Shown here piece after piece: positions 25,485 to 33,050 of a DNA stretch of 64,000 nt; position 1 is the stretch's first letter; each line of letters begins with the position of its first letter. Source of the stretch: a virus (taxonomy: Duplodnaviria; Caudoviricetes); IMG/VR virus record IMGVR_UViG_3300035520_001075, positions 93,484 through 157,483 of that record. One strand, 5' to 3'. The position numbers and the translations under genes were made by a program. The notes below the pieces were generated by a model, which had not been told where the DNA came from, ran no database searches, and was given only the letters and a program-made list of their open reading frames with translations.

Positions 25485-26027
25485 ATGGCTATAGCAGACC
25501 TTGTATATCCATCAGACCTTAACGGATATTATTGCTGCCCTCCAACAAAGAAGGCATCTACATCAACTGATTCAACAGCAAGTTCAACAACAACAAATTG
25601 CAACTGTCAGCCTCCAGAGTATCCATATCCATACCCACCATTTGGCTATCCATACCCTCCAGTGCCGCCACAGTCAGAAATAAAGATTAAAAAGAATTCT
25701 GTTGAATCTCAGATTTGCAAGTTATCAAAGAAATCTGCTGTTATTAAGAAAATGATAGAAGATTTTGAAGATAAAAATAAAGATGCTATACTGAAAATCG
25801 GAGCTTCGACATATAATTTTGGAAGTTTTTCTGTGATTACAGTAGAAGATGATGGCTCTAAATCAGAGGACGAATCTGTTTACGGCGAAACAATTCTCAC
25901 AGACCTCCTTAAAAAAGAGCTTGAAGCTATCAAGACTAAGCTTGTAGAACTTACAAGTGAACTCGAAGATGAGGTTGGGGAATCAACAACCGTTGAAACA
26001 ACTGAAAAGACAATAACTCAGTCATGA
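25485..26027 (+). CDS. Hypothetical protein with Cys/Pro/Tyr-rich N-terminus
   Basis: PPEYPYPYPPFGYPYPP segment; AGGAG RBS. Confidence 0.7.
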   Translation: MAIADLVYPSDLNGYYCCPPTKKASTSTDSTASSTTTNCNCQPPEYPYPYPPFGYPYPPVPPQSEIKIKKNSVESQICKLSKKSAVIKKMIEDFEDKNKDAILKIGASTYNFGSFSVITVEDDGSKSEDESVYGETILTDLLKKELEAIKTKLVELTSELEDEVGESTTVETTEKTITQS

Positions 26028-26118
26028 GGATATAAGTCAGGGGTTTATTAGCCCTTGACTTTTTTTATTTATTATGGTATAATTATTATAGAAAATAAAG
26101 AAAAGGAATGATTGCGGT

Positions 26119-26400
26119 ATGCTTACAAAAAGAACAGTTCCATATGAAGAAACAGAGAGAATACTTTTGTTTTTAAAACTTCTAAAATTAGAATATAGGA
26201 CTATTCGTATTAATAATTGCACAAGTGCTTTTCTTAGCTTTCTAAGAACAAGTGGTTTCCAGTATAACATAGGAAAAGATTCTAATCAGATTGAAATAGC
26301 AGGTAATACTATAGGTATTGTAGAGCTTGAATACACAGAAGAATCTTTAAAGAAGCGAATTAAATTTCATGAGTCTTTAATCCCAGATTTTCTTGAATAA
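26119..26400 (+). CDS. Hypothetical protein
   Basis: Promoter and RBS upstream. Confidence 0.65.
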   Translation: MLTKRTVPYEETERILLFLKLLKLEYRTIRINNCTSAFLSFLRTSGFQYNIGKDSNQIEIAGNTIGIVELEYTEESLKKRIKFHESLIPDFLE

Positions 26401-26428
26401 AATTATAAATGAACGGAGGAAAACCAAA

Positions 26429-26746
26429 ATGAAAATCTTTATAAGTCAGCCAATGAACGGCAGAACAGATGAACAAATCCTTAAAGAACGTGCAGAAACA
26501 GAAAATTTCCTACGAGAAAAGTTCAAAAAAGAAAAAGTTGACATAAGCATAATCAATTCTTTTATCACAAATGTAGACCCTAATGCTGGACCGCTTTACT
26601 ATCTTGGTCGTTCCATCTCTTTATTGGCGGCCGCCGATGCTATTTATTTTATAGGGGAATGGTATAATTCTCGTGGCTGTAGAATTGAGTATGATTGTGC
26701 TAAAGAATATGGAATTAAAATACTTGACTTTTCTAAAGAATCATGA
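26429..26746 (+). CDS. DUF4406/nucleoside deoxyribosyltransferase-like protein
   Basis: KIFISQPM.G...AD.IYF...W..SRGC.IE...A..YG. Confidence 0.7.
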   Translation: MKIFISQPMNGRTDEQILKERAETENFLREKFKKEKVDISIINSFITNVDPNAGPLYYLGRSISLLAAADAIYFIGEWYNSRGCRIEYDCAKEYGIKILDFSKES

Positions 26747-26778
26747 TATAATTATAGTATAATAAAAGGAGGGTTAAA

Positions 26779-27189
26779 ATGAAAGAAATAACTCTTAAAG
26801 AAGCTTGTAAAGCCGCAAAGAAAGCGACTTGCCGCATATCTAAAAAAGATAAAAAGCGTTATAAAGAATCTAAAAAATTCTATAAGAAAAATGGTTTCTA
26901 TTTTGAAGATAGCTGGAATCTTGATGCTTCAATTGCCGCTTTTATCTTACCTCGCTTAGTCCAATTGCGAGATGTGGGACAAGGCTGTCCAAGCTCTTTG
27001 GTAAATAATGATAAAAGCCCAAATCAAAATGAATGCCATATAGAATGGCGTAAAATATTGAACACGATGATAAATGGTTATTACTTATATTGTACAAAAG
27101 AACATTTTGATTGGAAAGAAAAAGATTTTGAACTTTGGAGACAAACAAAGCAGCTAACAATGCAATATTATGAATCTCTTTGGGACTAA
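26779..27189 (+). CDS. Hypothetical phage protein
   Basis: DSWNLD..IA.FILPRL...G.P...W..IL..M...YYESLWD; promoter and RBS. Confidence 0.7.
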   Translation: MKEITLKEACKAAKKATCRISKKDKKRYKESKKFYKKNGFYFEDSWNLDASIAAFILPRLVQLRDVGQGCPSSLVNNDKSPNQNECHIEWRKILNTMINGYYLYCTKEHFDWKEKDFELWRQTKQLTMQYYESLWD

Positions 27190-27257
27190 AATACTTTACT
27201 TTTATTCTCAATTATGATATAATAATTATAGTAAATTAAAGAAAGGAGGAAATAAAA

Positions 27258-27560
27258 ATGGGTGATGAAAAAGTTTTTCGTGTTGTAAAATCAAAATTCA
27301 TGATGAAAATAACTGAGCTTGAAGAAGTTGAAGCTAAAGATGAGAATGGTGAAACTACGAAAGAATTAAAAGTAATCAATTCTAAATGGATTCCAATGAG
27401 GGGTAAAGAATTTTCTGAGTCGATGAAAGAAGACTATGACAGAGGAATCAAGCATCAGATTACAATTGTAAAAGATGAACCAGATAAGTTCCAGTTCAAT
27501 CATATCTACATTCACGCTCTTGGAAAGAAAGCTTGGACTTATATTAAGAAAGAAGATTAA
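27258..27560 (+). CDS. Hypothetical protein
   Basis: Promoter and GGAGG RBS. Confidence 0.7.
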   Translation: MGDEKVFRVVKSKFMMKITELEEVEAKDENGETTKELKVINSKWIPMRGKEFSESMKEDYDRGIKHQITIVKDEPDKFQFNHIYIHALGKKAWTYIKKED

Positions 27561-27632
27561 AAAGTAAACTACTTTACTTTTTAAGAAAGTTATGGTATAA
27601 TAATTATAGAAAAGTTAAAGGAGGGAAAGCAA

Positions 27633-27758
27633 ATGGGAAAAGAAACAACATATGAAGTGGTTTGTGAAAAGTGTGGCAAAGTTTTTGAAGCTCATGATGA
27701 GAATTGTGTGCTTTGTAATGATTGCTGGGAAAAAATAATTGAAGATGAAGGAAAGTAA
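27633..27758 (+). CDS. Small zinc-ribbon protein, 41 aa, not in the ORF track
   Basis: GGAGG RBS; CEKC...CNDC. Confidence 0.6.
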   Translation: MGKETTYEVVCEKCGKVFEAHDENCVLCNDCWEKIIEDEGK

Positions 27759-27835
27759 ACTACTTTACTTTTTAAGAAAAATATGATATAATTATTATAG
27801 TAAAGATAAAAAAGAGTTTTATCTTTACTTTAGAT

Positions 27836-27910
27836 TTGGGATTAGTTTAGTCAGTAAAACGCAAGACTTTGGATCTTGAATGGTGTGAGCGTAGCATACA
27901 TCCCAAGCCA
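27836..27910 (+). tRNA. tRNA-Gln(TTG)
   Basis: TTGGGAT/ATCCCAA acceptor plus G-CCA; anticodon arm CAAGA-CTTTGGA-TCTTG; atypical T-loop AGCGTAG. Confidence 0.8.
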
Positions 27911-27966
27911 CTAAAAATTTTTCTTAAAGAAAGAAGCTAAATTAAATTAGCGTATACTTAATATAT

Positions 27967-28106
27967 TGGCAGGTAGACGAATTGGTAAAGTCCTCGGTCG
28001 GCTTATAAAAAGTTTTGGCAGGGGCAGTACCTGCATAAGCCACCATCTAAAACCGAAGACGGAAGGGAGACCTTCCATAGGAGTTCGAAGCTCCTCCTGC
28101 CAGCCA
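27967..28106 (+). tRNA. Amber suppressor tRNA (CTA), interrupted by a 46-nt insert between positions 32 and 33
   Basis: TGGCAGG/CCTGCCA plus G-CCA; D-arm GAC..GTC; anticodon stem TCGGT/ACCGA with loop C|TCTAAA; long variable arm GGAAGG-GAGA-CCTTCC; T-arm AGGAG-TTCGAAG-CTCCT. Confidence 0.9.
28000..28045 (+). other. Nested mini-tRNA intervening sequence inside the suppressor anticodon loop
   Basis: GGCTTAT(7)-AAAAAGTTTTG-GCAGG-GGCAGTA-CCTGC-ATAAGCC-A-CCA: perfect acceptor stem, 5-bp/7-nt T-arm and ACCA end. Confidence 0.85.
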
Positions 28107-28133
28107 TAGTACTTTTTTGAAAGGAGAATTATA

Positions 28134-28793
28134 ATGAGAACATAGAAGTGTAATATTTGTGGAGAAGTTAAACCAATTGAAGATTTTTATTTTCGCAAAG
28201 ATTTAAACACATACCGAAAAAATTGTAAAGAATGCCATAACAGAGGTAGGTCTAAGAAAAATAAGAAAGGCGGCTCATGTGGAATTTACAAAATAGTCAA
28301 CAATATTAATCACAAAGTTTATATTGGACAGTCAATTAATATTGAAAAAAGAATTGCTAAACACCAAAGTATGGCAAAAAGCGGAGGTGAAATGCCGTTA
28401 TATTGTGATATTAGAAAGTATGGTGTTGAAAATTTCTCATTTGAAATTATTGAATTATGTGATAAAGATTCTTTAGATAAAAAAGAAAGAGAATATATAA
28501 TTCAATATCAAAGTTTAGTATCTCAAAATGGATATAACATTGATGAAGGTGGACAGAAAGGTCGAAATTATCACCCAGAAAGTGATGGAATGGCTAAATT
28601 AAACTGGGACATGGTTCATCAAATTAAACAGCAGCTAATAATAGGCACTCCAAAAAGAGAATTAGCTGAACAATTTGGCGTATCAGTTTATGCAATTGAT
28701 GATATAAATAGAGGTAAGTCTTGGAAAGAAGACGATTTAATATATCCAATTTATAGTTTTCAAAAACATAAGTCAAACAATCCAATTGTTTGA
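28134..28793 (+). CDS. Zn-finger + GIY-YIG endonuclease + C-terminal HTH, 219 aa, TAG at codon 4
   Basis: AAGGAG RBS. MRT[Q]KCNIC...CKEC...GIYKIVN..VYIGQS, in frame with track ORF 28371-28793. Confidence 0.8.
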
Positions 28794-28850
28794 CTTCTAT
28801 AGTAAATTATGATATAATTATTATAGAAAGTTAAAAGAAAGGACTTAAAA

Positions 28851-29105
28851 ATGATTATTTCCGTAAAATTTAAAGATAAAAATAAAATCTTTAAAGGTCG
28901 TTCATACGATTATAAGCTTAATAGTGATGAACGAATTCCAAAAGTTGGTTCAATAATACGAATGATGAACAATGACTATTCTTTCCGCTGTAATGGAACA
29001 AGAGTTAGAGTTGAAAATGTTCGTAAAGAATCAATTGAAGATAGCGGGCTTGAAGAAATTCGTTATTTGGAATCTTCATTAGAAGAGCCAAGCTTTACTT
29101 TATAA
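28851..29105 (+). CDS. Hypothetical protein
   Basis: Promoter and RBS. Confidence 0.65.
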   Translation: MIISVKFKDKNKIFKGRSYDYKLNSDERIPKVGSIIRMMNNDYSFRCNGTRVRVENVRKESIEDSGLEEIRYLESSLEEPSFTL

Positions 29106-29147
29106 CAAAATTGTGGTATAATTATTATAGTAAGTGAGGAAAGCAAA

Positions 29148-29294
29148 ATGATTGAATTTCTTTACTTCGCCGCAAAAGCATTGATTATTATATTTGGCAT
29201 GAAATATTTGTCGAATGTGTTGATAGCTTTGTTTACTGGCGAAAAATTTAAGTCTAAAATTTTTAACACTTCTCATTTTAAAGATGAGGATTAA
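29148..29294 (+). CDS. Small membrane protein, 48 aa, not in the ORF track
   Basis: Promoter, GAGG RBS and hydrophobic N-terminus. Confidence 0.5.
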   Translation: MIEFLYFAAKALIIIFGMKYLSNVLIALFTGEKFKSKIFNTSHFKDED

Positions 29295-29303
29295 CTAAGC
29301 TAA

Positions 29304-29407
29304 AAAGAGTAGTTAGTGTGATTTCCTTTGATTACGCATTCCTTTGTTAGTCTACATTTGTATTCCTCCAAGATATATACATGACACCATCGTACTAACT
29401 ACTCTTT
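29304..29407. ncRNA. Long stem-loop RNA element
   Basis: 14-bp perfect stem AAAGAGTAGTTAGT/ACTAACTACTCTTT, extendable to ~19 bp with G-U pairs. Confidence 0.4.
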
Positions 29408-29484
29408 ATATAAATAGAACAATAGTAGTTTGTTGTAAATATTGTTCGCTCACCGTTGGCGACTAATAAATATACGGTTTAAAT

Positions 29485-29552
29485 GCCATTATAGTGTAGT
29501 GGAAAGCACGGGAAATATTTCTATTGTGCCAGTTCGATTCTGGCTAATGGCA
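29485..29552 (+). ncRNA. tRNA-like RNA lacking an anticodon loop
   Basis: GCCATTA/TAATGGC acceptor, normal D-arm and T-arm (GCCAG-TTCGATT-CTGGC). Anticodon arm is only 12 nt (GGAAATATTTCT). No CCA. Confidence 0.7.
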
Positions 29553-29916
29553 AACTTAGGTCGGAGTCGCAGAAATTCCTTACCCTGTAGATAAAAGTTA
29601 AAAATATTCGGCGGCAAAATTTAGGAAGTTTTTATTTTGCTTCAAAGAAAAACACAAAGCTTTTGGTTTTTTGGTGATTAGTACTGGTTCACCTTTGCAG
29701 GTTCCTTAAAAAAATAAAAAACAGTACTACGGTGCGTATTCTGTATCAAATGCGTGAGTTTAGTTTCAACTCGGAGGGAAACTACTGAGGACGCTCAGGG
29801 TTATAGTACTATAATTTTCTCTAAAGATTCAGGTTTAGCTTCTGCAGAAGCCCTATCTAATCTTTAGAACTTTTAGTGTCGTGGCGAAAGGGCACTATAA
29901 AACTTCTTCGCCTCAT
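29553..29916 (+). ncRNA. Putative structured ncRNA between two tRNA-like elements
   Basis: No credible ORF. Stems: TAGTACTG/CAGTACTA, TAGTTTC/GAAACTA, CTGAG/CTCAG, TCTAAAGATT/AATCTTTAGA, TAGTGTC/GGCACTA, and long-range GAAGTTTT/AAAACTTC. Confidence 0.45.
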
Positions 29917-29990
29917 GACTCATTGGTCAAGTGGTTAAGACGCTATCATTTATGATAGAATCACGGGTTCGTTCCCCGTATGAGTTTCCA
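29917..29990 (+). ncRNA. tRNA-like RNA (Glu-like body) with an aberrant 6-nt anticodon loop
   Basis: GACTCAT/ATGAGTT plus T-CCA; D-arm GTCAAGTGGTTAAGAC; anticodon arm CTATC-ATTTAT-GATAG; T-arm ACGGG-TTCGTTC-CCCGT. Confidence 0.7.
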
Positions 29991-30044
29991 AACCCTTTTA
30001 AAATAGGGAACTTAGAAATTAAAGTAAAGGAAGGTATAATACAA

Positions 30045-30170
30045 ATGGAAAAAGAAAGAGCAATTAAGGATTTACAGATTAGAATTGATATTTTAAGAGC
30101 TAAAGACCCAGTTAGTAATGCGAGAATTATTAAGAAGTTAGAAAGAAAAATTAGAAGCCTTGAAGGTTGA
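30045..30170 (+). CDS. Small basic protein, 41 aa
   Basis: AAGGAAGG RBS before ATG 30045. The longer track ORF overlaps the tRNA-like gene. Confidence 0.55.
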   Translation: MEKERAIKDLQIRIDILRAKDPVSNARIIKKLERKIRSLEG

Positions 30171-30310
30171 GAAAGGAGAAGAAGTCAAGAATTGAGCTAA
30201 AAATTCTTGACTCTTTTTTTTATTTTAGATTATGGGGCGGACGATATTTGACTTTTAACTTGGGTTATGATATAATTATTATAGTAAGTTAAGAGAGGAG
30301 AAAAAAAGTT

Positions 30311-31378
30311 ATGAAACTTATTGAGTATATAGTAAATCATAAGGATTGGAAAAATGAATTACAGAAGCCGCCATATTCTTTGTCTATAAAAGAAAAAGGC
30401 TCATTAATTATGTTTAATTATACTGTTGATTCTATTCCTTCTGAAATCGTTAACGAAGCAAGGGGTTTAATTCTTGAAATTGGAAATAAGATTAATGTAA
30501 TTCGTTATGGCTTTTATCGCTTCTATAACTATGTTGAAGAAGGGGCGGCGGCTTTAAACATGAAGAAAGTCTTTGCAACAGAGAAAATAGATGGGTCAGT
30601 TATAATGCTTTATTATTATAAAGGAAACTGGTATATTTCAACTCGTAATACTTTCGATGCTTTCGATGCTCCACTTGGAAATTCAGAAAGAACTTTTGGA
30701 GATTTAGCTATTGAAGCAATGAAATCTCAGGGGATTATTCCTTCTCAGCTTTTGCCGCAGAACACTTATGTTTTTGAGTTAGTATCTCCAGAATATCAGC
30801 ACGTTGTTAATTATGAGGATACCAAGCTTTATTTCTTAATGGCAAGAAATAATAATACTTATAAAGAAGTCGACGTTAAAACTGACTGGTTAAGACCTCG
30901 CCGCATTGAAGTTTCTTCTTATGAGCAGATTATTAACTATGTTTCTACTTTTGATGGAAAAGAATTTGAGGGCGTTGTGCTTCAGGATAATTATAATAAT
31001 AGAGTTAAGGTTAAGAACTTAAAGTGGTTAAAGCTTCATAAACTACATAATAATGGAAATTTAACTGTAGAGGCAGCTCTTAACTTAGTTGATATGGGTG
31101 AGATGGACGAATATTTAGCCTATTTCCCAGAGAAAAAAGACTTTGTTAATAGAATTCTATTTTGGAAGCAGACATCAATGTCTTATGCCTTATCTCTTGA
31201 TATGATAGACTTGAAAGAAAATTATCCTGATAGAAAAGATTATGCAGAAAAAGTGCTCAATTCCTACGCACCTCATGAGCAGTTTTTAATGTTTAAAGCA
31301 TATGATAATAGAGCTTATGAGTATATGACTTCACTATCTAATAAAAAATTAGCAGAATTATATGCAATTGAGCATTGA
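30311..31378 (+). CDS. T4 Rnl1-like ATP-dependent RNA ligase
   Basis: EARGLI, RFYN, motif I EKIDGS, FELVSP, EGVV, KVK. Confidence 0.85.
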   Translation: MKLIEYIVNHKDWKNELQKPPYSLSIKEKGSLIMFNYTVDSIPSEIVNEARGLILEIGNKINVIRYGFYRFYNYVEEGAAALNMKKVFATEKIDGSVIMLYYYKGNWYISTRNTFDAFDAPLGNSERTFGDLAIEAMKSQGIIPSQLLPQNTYVFELVSPEYQHVVNYEDTKLYFLMARNNNTYKEVDVKTDWLRPRRIEVSSYEQIINYVSTFDGKEFEGVVLQDNYNNRVKVKNLKWLKLHKLHNNGNLTVEAALNLVDMGEMDEYLAYFPEKKDFVNRILFWKQTSMSYALSLDMIDLKENYPDRKDYAEKVLNSYAPHEQFLMFKAYDNRAYEYMTSLSNKKLAELYAIEH

Positions 31379-31446
31379 ACAATATTTGACTTTTATCTCG
31401 GATTATGATATAATTATTATAGTAAATGAGAAAGAGAGGTTTATTT

Positions 31447-32331
31447 ATGGCTACATTATTTTTAATGATAGGATTGCCTTACTCAGGAAAATCAACACTC
31501 GCAGAATCCTACAAAAATTATAATAGAACAATGGTAATTTCTTCTGATGAAATTCGTAAGGAATTATTCGGAGACGCAGGCGACCAGTCTAATAACGAGC
31601 TTGTTTTTAAAGAATTCCATACACGAGTTGTCAATGGTTTGAAAATGGGATATAATGTTTTTGCAGATGCAACTAATTTAAATCGTAAGAAGAGAATGGC
31701 TTTCTTGGGCTCAATGCCAAAAGGAACTTTTAAAGTTGGAGTTATGATGGCAACACCTTTAGAGTTAATTTTTGAGCGTATGGAGAAGAGAGAAAGAAGA
31801 GTTTCTAAAGAAGTCGTTATGAGAATGCTGAAACAATTTCAGCCGCCGACTGAAGGAGAGGGCTTTGACTTAATTAATATCGAATTAAATCGCCCTTTTC
31901 ATTCTTTAGAAAATTACTTAGAATTAAATTTAATTCCTCATGATAACCCTCATCACAAGCTTGATGTTGCTGAACATATGTTGGCGACTTCTAACTTAAT
32001 TAAAGAGTGGTTGGAGGGAGATTCTTACGACAAAAGAAAAAACAATTTAATGACCGCCGCACGTTATCATGATATTGGGAAATACTTGGTAAAGGAATTT
32101 GATGACAAAGGAATTGCTCATTACTACTATCATGCCAACGTGTCTGCTTACTTATACTTAACTGCAGAGCGTTTCTCTCGTCAGGAAGACGTAATCTATA
32201 GAGCTAACTTAATTTACGAGCACATGACACCTTTTAACTCGAACTTCCCACCAAAGAGAATGTCGATTTATCCAAAAGAATTTATTGAAGACTTATTACT
32301 TTTACATAAGGCAGATGTTCAGTCTGCCTAA
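31447..32331 (+). CDS. Polynucleotide kinase (AAA_33) fused to an HD phosphohydrolase
   Basis: GLPYSGKST, SSDEIR, DATN..R; HDNPHH...EH...HDIGK...HA..SA...EH...AD. Confidence 0.85.
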   Translation: MATLFLMIGLPYSGKSTLAESYKNYNRTMVISSDEIRKELFGDAGDQSNNELVFKEFHTRVVNGLKMGYNVFADATNLNRKKRMAFLGSMPKGTFKVGVMMATPLELIFERMEKRERRVSKEVVMRMLKQFQPPTEGEGFDLINIELNRPFHSLENYLELNLIPHDNPHHKLDVAEHMLATSNLIKEWLEGDSYDKRKNNLMTAARYHDIGKYLVKEFDDKGIAHYYYHANVSAYLYLTAERFSRQEDVIYRANLIYEHMTPFNSNFPPKRMSIYPKEFIEDLLLLHKADVQSA

Positions 32332-32345
32332 GAAATGGAGAATAT

Positions 32346-33050
32346 ATGGAATTAAGTAATGAAAAATATAATCCAGAAGAAATTAAAGCAATTTTAGAAA
32401 TAATGCTTGGAGATGATGTTGAAGGAATTTTTGTAGCACAGGAATTATTAGATGACAATGATGATGAAATGCCAATTTATTCTAACTGGACTACAGCCTA
32501 TGAAATTCAAGAAACCTATTGCTGTAAGATTAGCTGCGGCTGCACTAAGCTTGTGATTATTCCAAGAGATAAGGACTATGTAATTAAATTACCTATTACT
32601 CATATTTATGAGGACGAAGAGATTACAATGCAGTTAGACCAAGAAGAAGATATTTTTGCAGAAGAAAAAGCTTTATATGATAGCAGTACTGAAACACTTC
32701 AGAACTTCATTCTTCCAAACTATTATATCGGGGAGTATCAGGGCATACCAGTTTTTGTTCAAGAAAAAGCTGAATTTGATATAGCAACTCCGCTGTCAGA
32801 AAAAGTCTTAGTCTCAGACCAAATAGTCAGCTCTATTAGAGAAGAAACAGACTTCTATAGCTTTTCTGTTGCTTTTGTAAAAGATATGGTAAGATATTTT
32901 GGACAGATAGAGACAAAAGAATTAATTGGAGAACTTTTGGATTATGAAATTGTTGATTTACATCGTGGTAATTATGGCTACACTCTTGAAGGTAAACCAT
33001 GCTTAATTGATATTGGCGGCTACCGTGAAGATAGGTGGGCGGTTTATTAA
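32346..33050 (+). CDS. Protein kinase-like protein
   Basis: GCTKLV, YVIKLP, QE, DLHRGNYG and IDIG kinase subdomain motifs. Confidence 0.65.
   Translation: MELSNEKYNPEEIKAILEIMLGDDVEGIFVAQELLDDNDDEMPIYSNWTTAYEIQETYCCKISCGCTKLVIIPRDKDYVIKLPITHIYEDEEITMQLDQEEDIFAEEKALYDSSTETLQNFILPNYYIGEYQGIPVFVQEKAEFDIATPLSEKVLVSDQIVSSIREETDFYSFSVAFVKDMVRYFGQIETKELIGELLDYEIVDLHRGNYGYTLEGKPCLIDIGGYREDRWAVY

What the first reader, a model, noticed from the sequence alone, without database searches (positions are those of the whole stretch)
27967..28106. tRNA within a tRNA: amber suppressor interrupted by a 46-nt mini-tRNA 'intron'
Seen: a complete suppressor cloverleaf whose anticodon loop is split between C32 (27999) and U33 (28046). 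The insert (28000-28045) is a self-contained tRNA top half: perfect 7-bp acceptor stem GGCTTAT/ATAAGCC, 5-bp T-stem with a 7-nt loop, an 11-nt linker in place of the D and anticodon arms, and an ACCA end. Removing exactly its first G through the CCA restores a canonical 7-nt loop, CU-CUA-AA. Known: acceptor stem + T-arm + CCA is the minimal RNase P substrate. RNase P leaves a 3'-OH on the upstream piece, and an RNase Z-type cut would leave a 5'-P on the downstream piece. The insert is far too short for a group I intron, and bacteria lack the archaeal/eukaryal splicing endonuclease. Inference: host tRNA-processing enzymes excise the insert and a ligase joins the halves, a type of tRNA splicing I do not know to be described, which would gate the switch to code 15.
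Basis: partly seen in the sequence, partly recalled or inferred. Interest (0 to 1): 0.97.

Follow-up and report, generated by a model that had tools for sequence, protein, structure and literature searches.

The report
tRNA-shaped mini-intron in phage suppressor tRNA
The only amber-suppressor tRNA gene of this gut phage is split in its anticodon loop by a 46-base insert shaped like the top half of a tRNA. It is one of a covarying family of such inserts in related phages, whose shape suggests that ordinary tRNA-trimming enzymes cut them out and a phage RNA ligase rejoins the tRNA; that splicing route has not been shown experimentally.

Summary
The insert folds as a 7-bp plus 5-bp coaxial minihelix ending in ACCA.

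New here: in 15 related phage genomes and two other contigs I found 11 further inserts of the same design. They sit in tRNA-Leu(UAA), Pro(UGG), Gln(UUG) and three other CUA suppressors, at positions 32|33, 34|35 or 35|36. In all 12, removing exactly stem base +1 through CCA restores a 7-nt loop with U33 and R37. Among ten distinct inserts, 116 of 120 stem cells pair, and no shuffle in 2000 reached that. Three orthologue pairs with and without the insert fix the boundaries.

TAG is Gln (invariant Q in 37 of 37 TerL homologues), and this is the genome's only CUA tRNA, so it must be spliced. T4-type Rnl1 and Pnk-HD lie 2-4 kb downstream and occur throughout the clade.

No RNA evidence could be obtained. 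RNase P, a cut after CCA, and Rnl1 sealing remain inference. The code-switch "gate" is only weakly supported.

This scan found such inserts before in 25 or more other genomes. Devoto et al. 2019 noted larger "enigmatic" tRNA-like introns in Lak phages.

The parts
27764..27792 (+). Promoter-like site (TTTACT-17-TATAAT with an upstream TG) ahead of the tRNA-Gln / suppressor pair
   Evidence: Consensus scan only; function not shown.
27836..27910 (+). tRNA-Gln(UUG), uninterrupted, 56 nt upstream of the suppressor. Its counterpart in relative G001 carries a family insert at 35|36.
   Evidence: ARAGORN and Rfam; G001 counterpart L104:9811-9936(-).
27967..27999 (+). 5' exon of tRNA(CUA): acceptor 5' strand, D arm, anticodon-stem 5' strand and C32
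28000..28045 (+). 46-nt tRNA-shaped mini-intron. Acceptor-like 5' strand 28000-28006; linker 28007-28017 (contains AAGU); T-like stem 28018-28022 / 28030-28034; 7-nt loop GGCAGUA 28023-28029; acceptor-like 3' strand 28035-28041; discriminator A 28042; CCA 28043-28045.
   Evidence: Fold; ARAGORN intron call; covariation across 10 homologous inserts, 116 of 120 cells paired and 0 of 2000 shuffles reaching that; intronless orthologue in G001.
28046..28106 (+). 3' exon: U33, anticodon CUA, A37, A38, anticodon-stem 3' strand, 22-nt variable arm, T arm, acceptor 3' strand, G73, CCA
   Evidence: U1:A72, G2:C71, G3:C70 and G73 are read from the sequence.
30248..30276 (+). Promoter-like site (TTGACT-17-TATAAT with an upstream TG) ahead of the ligase gene
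   Evidence: Consensus scan only.
30311..31378 (+). T4-type RNA ligase 1 (Rnl1-like, 355 aa, no in-frame TAG); candidate sealing enzyme
   Evidence: Pfam RNA_lig_T4_1, E = 7e-14; motifs KIDG, EGVV and VKVK in the translation; orthologues in 15 of 15 close relatives.
31426..32331 (+). Polynucleotide kinase (P-loop, AAA_33) fused to an HD phosphohydrolase domain (301 aa, no TAG); candidate end-healing enzyme
   Evidence: Pfam AAA_33 E = 1e-21, HD E = 1e-7; full-length matches in 11 of 15 close relatives, kinase- and HD-sized pieces at separate places in G002 and G003, an HD-region piece only in G012, none in G014.

Best explanation
The 46-nt insert is a real, protein-spliced mini-intron. It belongs to a mobile family in this phage clade.

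Each member is a tRNA top half: a 7-bp acceptor-like stem stacked on a 5-bp T-like stem, a 7-nt loop of the form xGCAxxx, a discriminator and CCA. Each sits inside an anticodon loop. Because the family occupies different loop positions in different tRNAs, while its ends always coincide with minihelix base +1 and A76, the cuts must be specified by the intron's own tRNA shape.

The most likely route is:
1. Host RNase P cuts 5' of G28000. This leaves a 3'-OH on the 5' exon.
2. An endonuclease that cuts directly after CCA (RNase Z/BN type) cleaves at 28045|28046. This leaves a 5'-phosphate on the 3' exon.
3. The two halves stay paired as a nicked tRNA.
4. The phage Rnl1 seals the anticodon-loop nick. 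Pnk-HD is available if an end needs healing.

The product is a 94-nt, class-II-shaped Gln amber suppressor that the phage needs to read its roughly 90 in-frame TAG codons.

My odds for each layer: removed at the RNA level 0.85; boundaries set by the minihelix 0.8; RNase P makes the 5' cut 0.55; Rnl1 seals 0.6; the 3' cut is RNase Z-like 0.35. Anatomy, covariation, the boundary rule and gene content are shown. All enzymology is inferred.
For: - Anatomy and the ARAGORN intron call.
- Family: 10 distinct inserts in relatives G001, G004, G006/G015, G007/G010/G013, G010 and G014, plus two more in IMG/VR contigs (L134, L152). They lie in tRNA-Leu(UAA), Pro(UGG), Gln(UUG) and four CUA tRNAs, at 32|33, 34|35 and 35|36.
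- In every case, excising +1..CCA restores a 7-nt loop with U33 and R37.
- Covariation: 116 of 120 stem cells pair, with 2-5 pair types at 11 of 12 pairs. Shuffles give 79 +/- 3.4, and 0 of 2000 reach the observed value.
- Invariant features match what bacterial RNase P reads. They are a 12-bp stack, a 7-nt loop closed by G:C (the equivalent of G53:C61), NCCA to pair with GGU of L15, and G+1 in 8 of 10 (PMC10731613).
- Orthologue pairs with and without the insert fix the junctions: ours vs G001, G006 vs G005, G010 vs G007.
- Necessity: TAG = Gln (TerL TAG92 aligns with Q in 37 of 37 homologues). There are 93 in-frame TAGs in 30 ORFs of at least 200 aa. There is only one CUA tRNA in a complete genome.
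- Ligase: Rnl1 family with catalytic motifs, next to Pnk-HD. T4 Rnl1/Pnkp are known to heal and seal anticodon-loop breaks (PMC3400036). RNase P and RNase Z products (3'-OH, 5'-P) are direct Rnl1 substrates (established enzymology).
- The phage itself encodes no RNase Z, RtcB, EndA or CCA-adding enzyme.
Against: - No RNA-level evidence was obtained.
- The loop GGCAGUA is not a canonical T-loop (position 55 is G, not U).
- N(-1) is C, not the preferred U.
- CCA is an anti-determinant for most bacterial RNase Z enzymes. Only T. maritima-type enzymes are reported to cut after CCA (PMC3161902), and the host is unknown.
- Rnl1 and Pnk-HD are clade-wide, including genomes where I found no insert. 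Their presence does not discriminate and may only reflect anti-defence tRNA repair.
- Having a kinase/phosphatase next to the ligase fits a 2',3'-cyclic-phosphate/5'-OH chemistry equally well.
Confidence: 0.5

Rival explanations
1. Same intron, different chemistry. [quoted passage not shown] This is what splicing endonucleases and anticodon nucleases do. Pnk-HD then heals both ends and Rnl1 seals them, a bacterial analogue of the yeast/plant Trl1 pathway.
For: A kinase + HD phosphohydrolase gene sits directly beside Rnl1 and recurs in most relatives. The T4 Pnkp/Rnl1 pair works on exactly such ends (PMC3400036). No known bacterial enzyme is established to cut after CCA in most hosts (PMC3161902).
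Against: No EndA-like gene in the phage. The invariant NCCA, the 12-bp stack and G+1 are exactly the bacterial RNase P determinants, and this model would leave them unexplained. G014 has an insert but gave no Pnk-HD match.
Confidence: 0.25
2. The interrupted gene is a dead suppressor, inactivated by a small mobile insertion. TAG is read some other way, for example by a host suppressor or by near-cognate reading by tRNA-Gln(UUG).
For: No spliced RNA has been seen. Rfam's tRNA model does not recognise the gene. An uninterrupted tRNA-Gln(UUG) lies 56 nt upstream.
Against: It is the only CUA tRNA in a complete genome with 93 in-frame TAGs, one of them at an invariant Gln of the terminase. All 38 pairs of the exons and the insert are intact. 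The sequence is identical in four contigs. In relatives the same inserts sit in Leu(UAA), Pro and Gln tRNAs and in other suppressors, always in a form that restores a perfect loop. Decay would not preserve that.
Confidence: 0.07
3. The insert is a small self-cleaving or self-splicing RNA.
For: The genome is rich in self-splicing group I introns: 7 Rfam hits outside the window.
Against: At 46 nt with a single two-stem hairpin, it is far below any group I/II core. No Rfam ribozyme or intron family matches even at E <= 10. The conserved features are tRNA-like, not ribozyme-like.
Confidence: 0.03

Closest known systems
'Enigmatic' introns of Lak megaphage tRNAs (Devoto et al. 2019, Nat Microbiol, PMC6784885; Fig. 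4, Table S6)
   Same: Introns in phage tRNA genes of TAG-recoded gut phages. The intron contains a tRNA-like fold ('itself may encode a tRNA'). There is presence/absence polymorphism between related genomes and no Rfam match.
   Different: The Lak introns are 79-114 nt. They have an extra 5' hairpin and an A-rich spacer, and some have a full cloverleaf. As listed they end in ..CA or ..CTA, not NCCA. tRNAscan placed them at 37/38. No boundary rule, covariation or mechanism was given. Ours is the bare 45-52-nt minihelix ending in CCA, at 32|33, 34|35 or 35|36.
Phage T4 PrrC / Pnkp / Rnl1 tRNA break-repair
   Same: A phage-encoded Rnl1-family ligase plus a polynucleotide kinase/phosphatase act on a tRNA nicked in the anticodon loop (PMC3400036). 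The ligase family and motifs are shared.
   Different: In T4 the break is damage inflicted by a host defence nuclease on a host tRNA. Here the break would be programmed, in the phage's own tRNA, with removal of 46 nt. The phosphatase module is an HD domain rather than T4's DxDxT domain.
Group I introns in bacterial, plastid and phage tRNA anticodon loops (e.g. tRNA-Leu(UAA))
   Same: An intervening sequence in the anticodon loop of a bacterial-type tRNA, including tRNA-Leu(UAA); mobile; occurs in an intron-rich phage.
   Different: Group I introns are self-splicing ribozymes of 200 nt or more with a P1-P9 core and a terminal G. The insert is 46 nt, has no such core and gives no RF00028 match.
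Archaeal/eukaryal protein-spliced tRNA introns (bulge-helix-bulge, EndA/TSEN plus RtcB or Trl1)
   Same: A short, non-catalytic intron in the anticodon loop, removed by proteins and followed by ligation of tRNA halves. Non-canonical positions also occur in archaea (PMC4090602, seen only as a title and abstract in the listing).
   Different: No bulge-helix-bulge motif forms at the junctions. No EndA or RtcB in the phage. Bacteria lack the splicing endonuclease (established knowledge). Here the recognition element is a tRNA mimic inside the intron.
tRNA-like elements excised by RNase P and RNase Z from longer transcripts (MALAT1 mascRNA; mitochondrial tRNA punctuation)
   Same: A tRNA-shaped module inside a longer RNA dictates endonucleolytic cuts at its own 5' and 3' ends (my own knowledge, not checked here).
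   Different: In those systems the flanks are not rejoined. Here the flanks are the two halves of another tRNA and must be ligated.

Membership tests
CCA-ended tRNA-minihelix mini-introns of phage tRNAs (this clade; also met earlier in this scan) | Lies inside the anticodon loop of an otherwise complete tRNA gene | tested here: met
   Between C32 and U33 of a tRNA(CUA).
CCA-ended tRNA-minihelix mini-introns of phage tRNAs (this clade; also met earlier in this scan) | 7-bp + 5-bp stems with a continuous 3' strand and a 7-nt loop, supported by covariation | tested here: met
   116 of 120 cells paired in 10 distinct inserts; 0 of 2000 shuffles reach that.
CCA-ended tRNA-minihelix mini-introns of phage tRNAs (this clade; also met earlier in this scan) | 3' end is N-CCA, and excision of +1..A76 restores a 7-nt loop with U33/R37 | tested here: met
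   12 of 12 members.
CCA-ended tRNA-minihelix mini-introns of phage tRNAs (this clade; also met earlier in this scan) | Presence/absence polymorphism at orthologous tRNA genes | tested here: met
   Ours vs G001; G006/G015 vs G005; G010 vs G007.
CCA-ended tRNA-minihelix mini-introns of phage tRNAs (this clade; also met earlier in this scan) | Removed from the RNA to give a contiguous tRNA | tested here: inconclusive
   Four metatranscriptome runs were laid; no contig covers 27759-28260.
Lak megaphage 'enigmatic' tRNA introns (Devoto 2019) | Intron in a phage tRNA that contains a tRNA-like fold | tested here: met
Lak megaphage 'enigmatic' tRNA introns (Devoto 2019) | Architecture as published: 79-114 nt, 5' hairpin plus spacer before the tRNA-like part, ends ..CA/..CTA | tested here: not met
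   Table S6 sequences, compared with 46 nt, no 5' hairpin and an ACCA end here.
Group I intron | Conserved catalytic core detectable with RF00028 | tested here: not met
   No hit in the window at gathering score, nor at E <= 10 in 27500-30400. Seven true hits elsewhere in the genome show that the test works.
Archaeal/eukaryal BHB intron | Two 3-nt bulges separated by a 4-bp helix at the splice sites | tested here: not met
   In the minimum-energy fold the 5' site follows a single unpaired C32 and the 3' site lies in a 10-nt single strand.
Archaeal/eukaryal BHB intron | Splicing endonuclease (EndA) available | tested here: not met
   PF01974 is absent from the phage genome; the control search hit only the archaeal genomes.
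Bacterial RNase P substrate | 12-bp acceptor/T-stem stack with a loop at its end | tested here: met
   determinants as listed in PMC10731613.
Bacterial RNase P substrate | 3' RCCA able to pair with GGU of L15 | tested here: met
   ACCA here; NCCA invariant in 12 of 12.
Bacterial RNase P substrate | Optimal U(-1)/G(+1) at the cleavage site | tested here: inconclusive
   G(+1) is present here and in 8 of 10 members; N(-1) is C here.
Bacterial RNase P substrate | Is actually cleaved by RNase P | not testable with these tools
   Needs an in vitro or in vivo assay.
T4-type Rnl1 / Pnkp tRNA repair module | Rnl1-family nucleotidyltransferase domain with a KxDG lysine motif | tested here: met
   PF09511, E = 7e-14; KIDG, EGVV and VKVK motifs. 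No sequence match to a solved structure.
T4-type Rnl1 / Pnkp tRNA repair module | Bifunctional kinase-phosphatase of T4 Pnkp architecture (P-loop kinase + DxDxT phosphatase) | tested here: not met
   The kinase domain is present, but the second domain is HD. This is a functional analogue, not the same architecture.

The most novel reading that the evidence does not exclude
Bacteria and their phages have a third kind of tRNA splicing. The intron is itself a tRNA mimic and recruits the universal tRNA end-processing enzymes: RNase P at its 5' end and an after-CCA endonuclease at its 3' end. A phage Rnl1 ligase then rejoins the host tRNA. In this phage the arrangement makes maturation of the sole Gln amber suppressor depend on a TAG-free early ligase gene. 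That would time the switch to TAG=Gln decoding of late genes.
Probability: 0.3. Interest if true: 0.95.

Novelty: new variant of a known kind. Interest (0 to 1): 0.8.

Why it matters
All known tRNA introns are either ribozymes (group I, in bacteria and organelles) or are recognised by a dedicated splicing endonuclease (archaea and eukaryotes). An intron that carries a tRNA-shaped handle would be a new logic of RNA splicing: the cell's ordinary tRNA-trimming enzymes excise it and a repair ligase closes the gap. It would also give the widespread phage Rnl1/Pnk genes a constructive role beyond countering anticodon nucleases.

The clade described here offers a ready comparative data set: 12 inserts, 3 loop positions, 5 tRNA species and 3 orthologue pairs with and without the insert. 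The prediction is simple and can be tested in vitro with commercial or easily made enzymes. Because four of eight independent insertions hit amber suppressors, the system may also bear on how recoded phages control when TAG becomes a sense codon.

Tried and rejected
1. RNA evidence. One run search found four animal-gut metatranscriptomes holding 5-12% of the words of 25500-33000. Laid on the stretch, their contigs do not cover 27759-28260 and show no joint. This says nothing either way about splicing.
2. Public phage records. There was no nucleotide match to the tRNA region in the INPHARED phages. Rnl1 gave only distant tblastn hits.
3. Exact-pattern and Rnl1-based scans of IMG/VR returned only three near-identical contigs, which give no covariation. 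The portal protein was the query that opened up the clade.
4. The genome search with the short 46-nt model R2 missed inserts that cmsearch on fetched loci finds at 28-35 bits. I replaced it with a descriptor script on fetched tRNA regions. Only tRNA regions of relatives were fetched, so inserts elsewhere in those genomes would be missed. That script allowed no T-stem mismatch and missed the G004 Leu insert, which ARAGORN recovered.
5. MAFFT right-aligned the inserts and put the 5' strands out of register. Pair counts were therefore made by segment in a script.
6. Link to the GIY-YIG endonuclease ('collaborative homing'). Paralogues are scattered through the tRNA regions of relatives. One follows an intronless CUA tRNA in G007, and none was found near the two inserts of G010. 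The link is not supported.
7. Co-occurrence with Rnl1. It is present in 15 of 15 close relatives whether or not inserts were found, so it does not discriminate. The outside contig G047 (holding L134) is 42% complete and has no Rnl1 or portal match; L152's record was not held. Both are uninformative.
8. Literature. Seven full-text searches found no mechanistic description. The Devoto 2019 lead came from earlier notes of this scan, and I then read the paper.
9. No sequence match of the ligase to solved structures.
10. The ARAGORN intron calls at G008/G011 (31 nt and 90 nt) are not of this family.
Full report
**1. The observation**

The window is the right-hand 64 kb of a complete 157,483-bp IMG/VR phage genome. 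The genome has direct terminal repeats and is 31% G+C.

At 27967-28106 the sequence reads as a full tRNA. In order it has:
- acceptor stem TGGCAGG/CCTGCCA;
- a 3-bp D stem;
- anticodon stem TCGGT/ACCGA;
- a 22-nt variable arm with a 6-bp stem;
- T arm AGGAG/CTCCT;
- discriminator G and an encoded CCA.

The anticodon loop is split. C32 is at 27999. Then come 46 nt (28000-28045). Then U33-CUA-AA starts at 28046.

ARAGORN with introns allowed makes the same call on the whole genome: tRNA(cta), 94 nt, with a 46-nt intron at that junction. Default ARAGORN and the Rfam tRNA model miss the gene.

The insert folds alone into GGCUUAU / 11-nt linker / GCAGG-GGCAGUA-CCUGC / AUAAGCC, followed by ACCA. The full precursor keeps both the cloverleaf and the minihelix in its minimum-energy fold (z = -3.8, 0 of 200 shuffles). 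All 38 pairs are standard pairs.

Three other IMG/VR contigs, all from other metagenome data sets, carry the same 140 nt without a single change. An assembly artefact is therefore excluded, but these contigs give no covariation.

**2. A family of such inserts in related phages**

The portal protein retrieves 80 related IMG/VR loci. They are 59-81% identical, and many come from 140-180-kb genomes. A covariance model of the whole interrupted tRNA found homologues of several lengths in those records. I then took three steps:
- fetched the tRNA regions of 15 relatives;
- ran ARAGORN with introns allowed;
- ran a descriptor script requiring a 7-bp stem, a linker, a 5-bp stem, a 7-nt loop, a continuous 3' strand and NCCA.

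Ten distinct inserts of the same design emerged, counting the one in this window.

| Host tRNA | Genome(s) | Position |
|---|---|---|
| class-II tRNA(CUA) | this phage | 32\|33 |
| tRNA-Leu(UAA) | G007, G010, G013 | 32\|33 |
| class-I tRNA(CUA) | G006, G015 | 32\|33 |
| a different class-I tRNA(CUA) | G010 | 35\|36 |
| tRNA(CUA) | G004 | 34\|35 |
| tRNA-Leu(UAA) | G004 | 35\|36 |
| tRNA-Pro(UGG) | G014 | 35\|36 |
| tRNA-Gln(UUG) | G001 | 35\|36 |

A pattern scan of IMG/VR for the loop and ACCA added two more. One is in a tRNA-Leu(UAA) at 34|35 and one in a tRNA-Gln(UUG) at 35|36.

In all twelve, removing exactly the stretch from the first base of the 7-bp stem through CCA leaves a 7-nt anticodon loop with U33 and a purine at position 37. 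Three orthologue pairs with and without the insert give the same junctions:
- ours against the nearest relative G001 (81% portal identity);
- G006/G015 against G005;
- G010 against G007.

**3. Covariation**

I counted pairs by segment over the ten distinct sequences.
- 116 of 120 stem cells are standard pairs.
- 11 of the 12 pairs show 2-5 different pair types.
- When the 3' partners are shuffled among the sequences, the mean is 79 +/- 3.4 paired cells, and none of 2000 shuffles reaches 116.

The invariant features are:
- the loop-closing G:C pair, which is the position of G53:C61 in tRNA;
- G-C-A at loop positions 2-4;
- the terminal CCA.

G is the first base in 8 of 10. The linker varies from 10 to 16 nt and often contains AGU. 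The stems are conserved in structure, not in sequence, so the fold is under selection.

**4. The tRNA must be functional**

Under TAG=Gln, 30 of the 74 ORFs of at least 200 aa contain 93 in-frame TAGs in total. The terminase has 3 and the 1953-aa tape-measure-region frame has 18.

In an alignment with 37 full-length terminase homologues, TAG92 falls on an invariant Gln (37 of 37). TAG155 falls on Gln in 22 of 37.

The genome is complete and has no other CUA tRNA. The exon body carries U1:A72, G2:C71, G3:C70 and G73. These are the acceptor-end identity set of bacterial tRNA-Gln (established knowledge). The body also has an unusual long variable arm, which the intronless G001 orthologue and a G009 suppressor share. 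A dead gene is therefore very unlikely.

**5. How it most likely works**

The same insert design occupies three loop positions in five tRNA species. Its ends always coincide with minihelix base +1 and A76. The cuts must therefore be specified by the insert, not by the surrounding tRNA. This differs from the eukaryal ruler mechanism. It also differs from the archaeal bulge-helix-bulge motif, and no such motif forms here.

The conserved features are those that bacterial RNase P reads (PMC10731613):
- a 12-bp acceptor/T stack with a loop at its end;
- a 3' RCCA that pairs with GGU of L15;
- G at +1.

RNase P would leave a 3'-OH on the 5' exon. A cut directly after CCA by an RNase Z-type enzyme would leave a 5'-phosphate on the 3' exon (established enzymology). 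The recombinant T. maritima RNase Z is reported to cut after CCA. For most other RNase Z enzymes CCA is an anti-determinant (PMC3161902). This step is therefore the weakest in the model.

After the two cuts, the halves remain held together by the anticodon, acceptor and tertiary pairs as a nicked tRNA. T4 Rnl1 seals exactly that kind of substrate (PMC3400036).

The phage encodes an Rnl1-family ligase with KIDG, EGVV and VKVK motifs at 30311-31378. It also encodes a P-loop kinase fused to an HD domain at 31426-32331. Each has a consensus promoter-like site nearby or upstream, and neither contains TAG. The phage has no RNase Z-like, RtcB, EndA or CCA-adding gene. Any endonucleases involved would therefore be host enzymes or an unrecognised phage protein.

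**6. Rivals**

[quoted passage not shown] The adjacent Pnk-HD makes this plausible. It leaves the invariant NCCA and the 12-bp stack unexplained. My odds: 0.25.
- *Dead pseudogene.* My odds: 0.07, for the reasons given in section 4.
- *Self-cleaving or self-splicing RNA.* My odds: 0.03. The insert is 46 nt and gives no Rfam match even at E <= 10. The genome's seven group I introns are readily detected.

**7. The 'gate' idea**

For the idea:
- Rnl1 and Pnk-HD contain no TAG.
- Inserts are enriched in suppressors. Five of 12 CUA genes carry one, against 6 of 124 other tRNA genes (Fisher p about 0.001). Counting independent insertions, the split is 4 against 4 (p about 0.002). The genomes are related, so these p values are rough.

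Against the idea:
- The same inserts sit in ordinary Leu, Pro and Gln tRNAs.
- The nearest relative has the orthologous suppressor uninterrupted.
- Rnl1 is a clade-wide gene.

I rate a timing role at about 0.25. A selfish, frequently gained and lost element that is tolerated because it splices cleanly explains the distribution equally well.

**8. What is known**

Seven full-text searches found no description of CCA-ended minihelix introns or of an RNase P plus ligase splicing route. Earlier notes of this scan report the same design in at least 25 other phage genomes. Those notes pointed to Devoto et al. 2019.

I read that paper and its Table S6. Lak megaphages have 79-114-nt introns in tRNA-Tyr, Phe, Thr and Gly. 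One 'itself may encode a tRNA'. As listed, the introns carry a 5' hairpin and a spacer before the tRNA-like part and end in CA or CTA. No mechanism is proposed.

The insert here is therefore a compact, CCA-ended variant of a kind that has been noticed but not explained. It lies in a different phage lineage of about 150-180 kb, apparently with a long, non-contractile tail (Dit and tape measure genes).

**9. Limits**

- No RNA contig covers the tRNA.
- The host is unknown, so its RNase P and RNase Z types are unknown.
- Only the tRNA regions of relatives were scanned. Genomes counted as 'without insert' may have inserts elsewhere.
- All enzymology is inference.

Noticed in passing
window 29500-29912: An ORF-free spacer between two tRNA-like elements is by far the most abundant RNA of the 7.5-kb stretch in three animal-gut metatranscriptome studies. 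Its contigs are 325-405 nt at depth 36-73, against 2-5 for neighbouring genes, and they end at 29902-29912, just before the second tRNA-like element. No Rfam family matches at E <= 10, and no nucleotide homologue was found in the fetched tRNA regions of relatives. It is probably a ~360-nt structured non-coding RNA released by tRNA-type processing.
   Followed up: partly
window 29485-29552: A tRNA-like element scores 48.9 bits with the Rfam tRNA model, but its anticodon arm is reduced to the short palindrome GAAAUAUUUC. It has no anticodon loop and no encoded CCA. It may be a processing signal rather than a decoder.
   Followed up: no
window 29917-29990; also L119:8004-8075: A tRNA-like gene has a 6-nt anticodon loop (AUUUAU) and an encoded CCA; ARAGORN reports a two-base anticodon. 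Relative G013 has another tRNA with a 6-nt loop (AACCAA). Their function is unknown.
   Followed up: no
window 28134-28793: A GIY-YIG homing-endonuclease gene lies 28 nt downstream of the suppressor and has TAG as its fourth codon, so its own translation needs the suppressor. Paralogues are scattered through the tRNA regions of relatives, with no consistent link to inserts.
   Followed up: partly
window 27967-28106; L104:9511-9604(-); L114:10012-10104(-): The Gln amber suppressor has a class-II shape (long variable arm) together with Gln-type acceptor features (U1:A72, G73). The same unusual body occurs uninterrupted in G001 and G009. The G001 copy has C rather than U at position 33 (loop CC-CUA-AA).
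   Followed up: partly
L007:16249-16579; L008:11261-13982 (five hits); L010:16648-16876(-): Seven group I introns pass Rfam's gathering score in the part of the genome outside the window. Five lie within 2.8 kb of one another at genome 31.3-34.0 kb, just upstream of the 1953-aa tape-measure-region ORF (genome 35404-41265). This agrees with earlier notes that the genome is unusually intron-rich.
   Followed up: partly
L113:13862-13966 and L113:14734-14910 (same in L117): Relatives G008 and G011 have a tRNA-like gene whose anticodon arm is extended to a ~38-nt hairpin, and another 177-nt tRNA-like gene. Neither insert is of the CCA-minihelix type.
   Followed up: no
L145, L170, L184, L229, L243 (IMG/VR): Unrelated viral contigs carry a stem-loop with the same loop GGCAGUA followed by CGCCTCC-ACCA, apparently not inside anticodon loops. 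This may be another tRNA-like element that uses the same loop.
   Followed up: no
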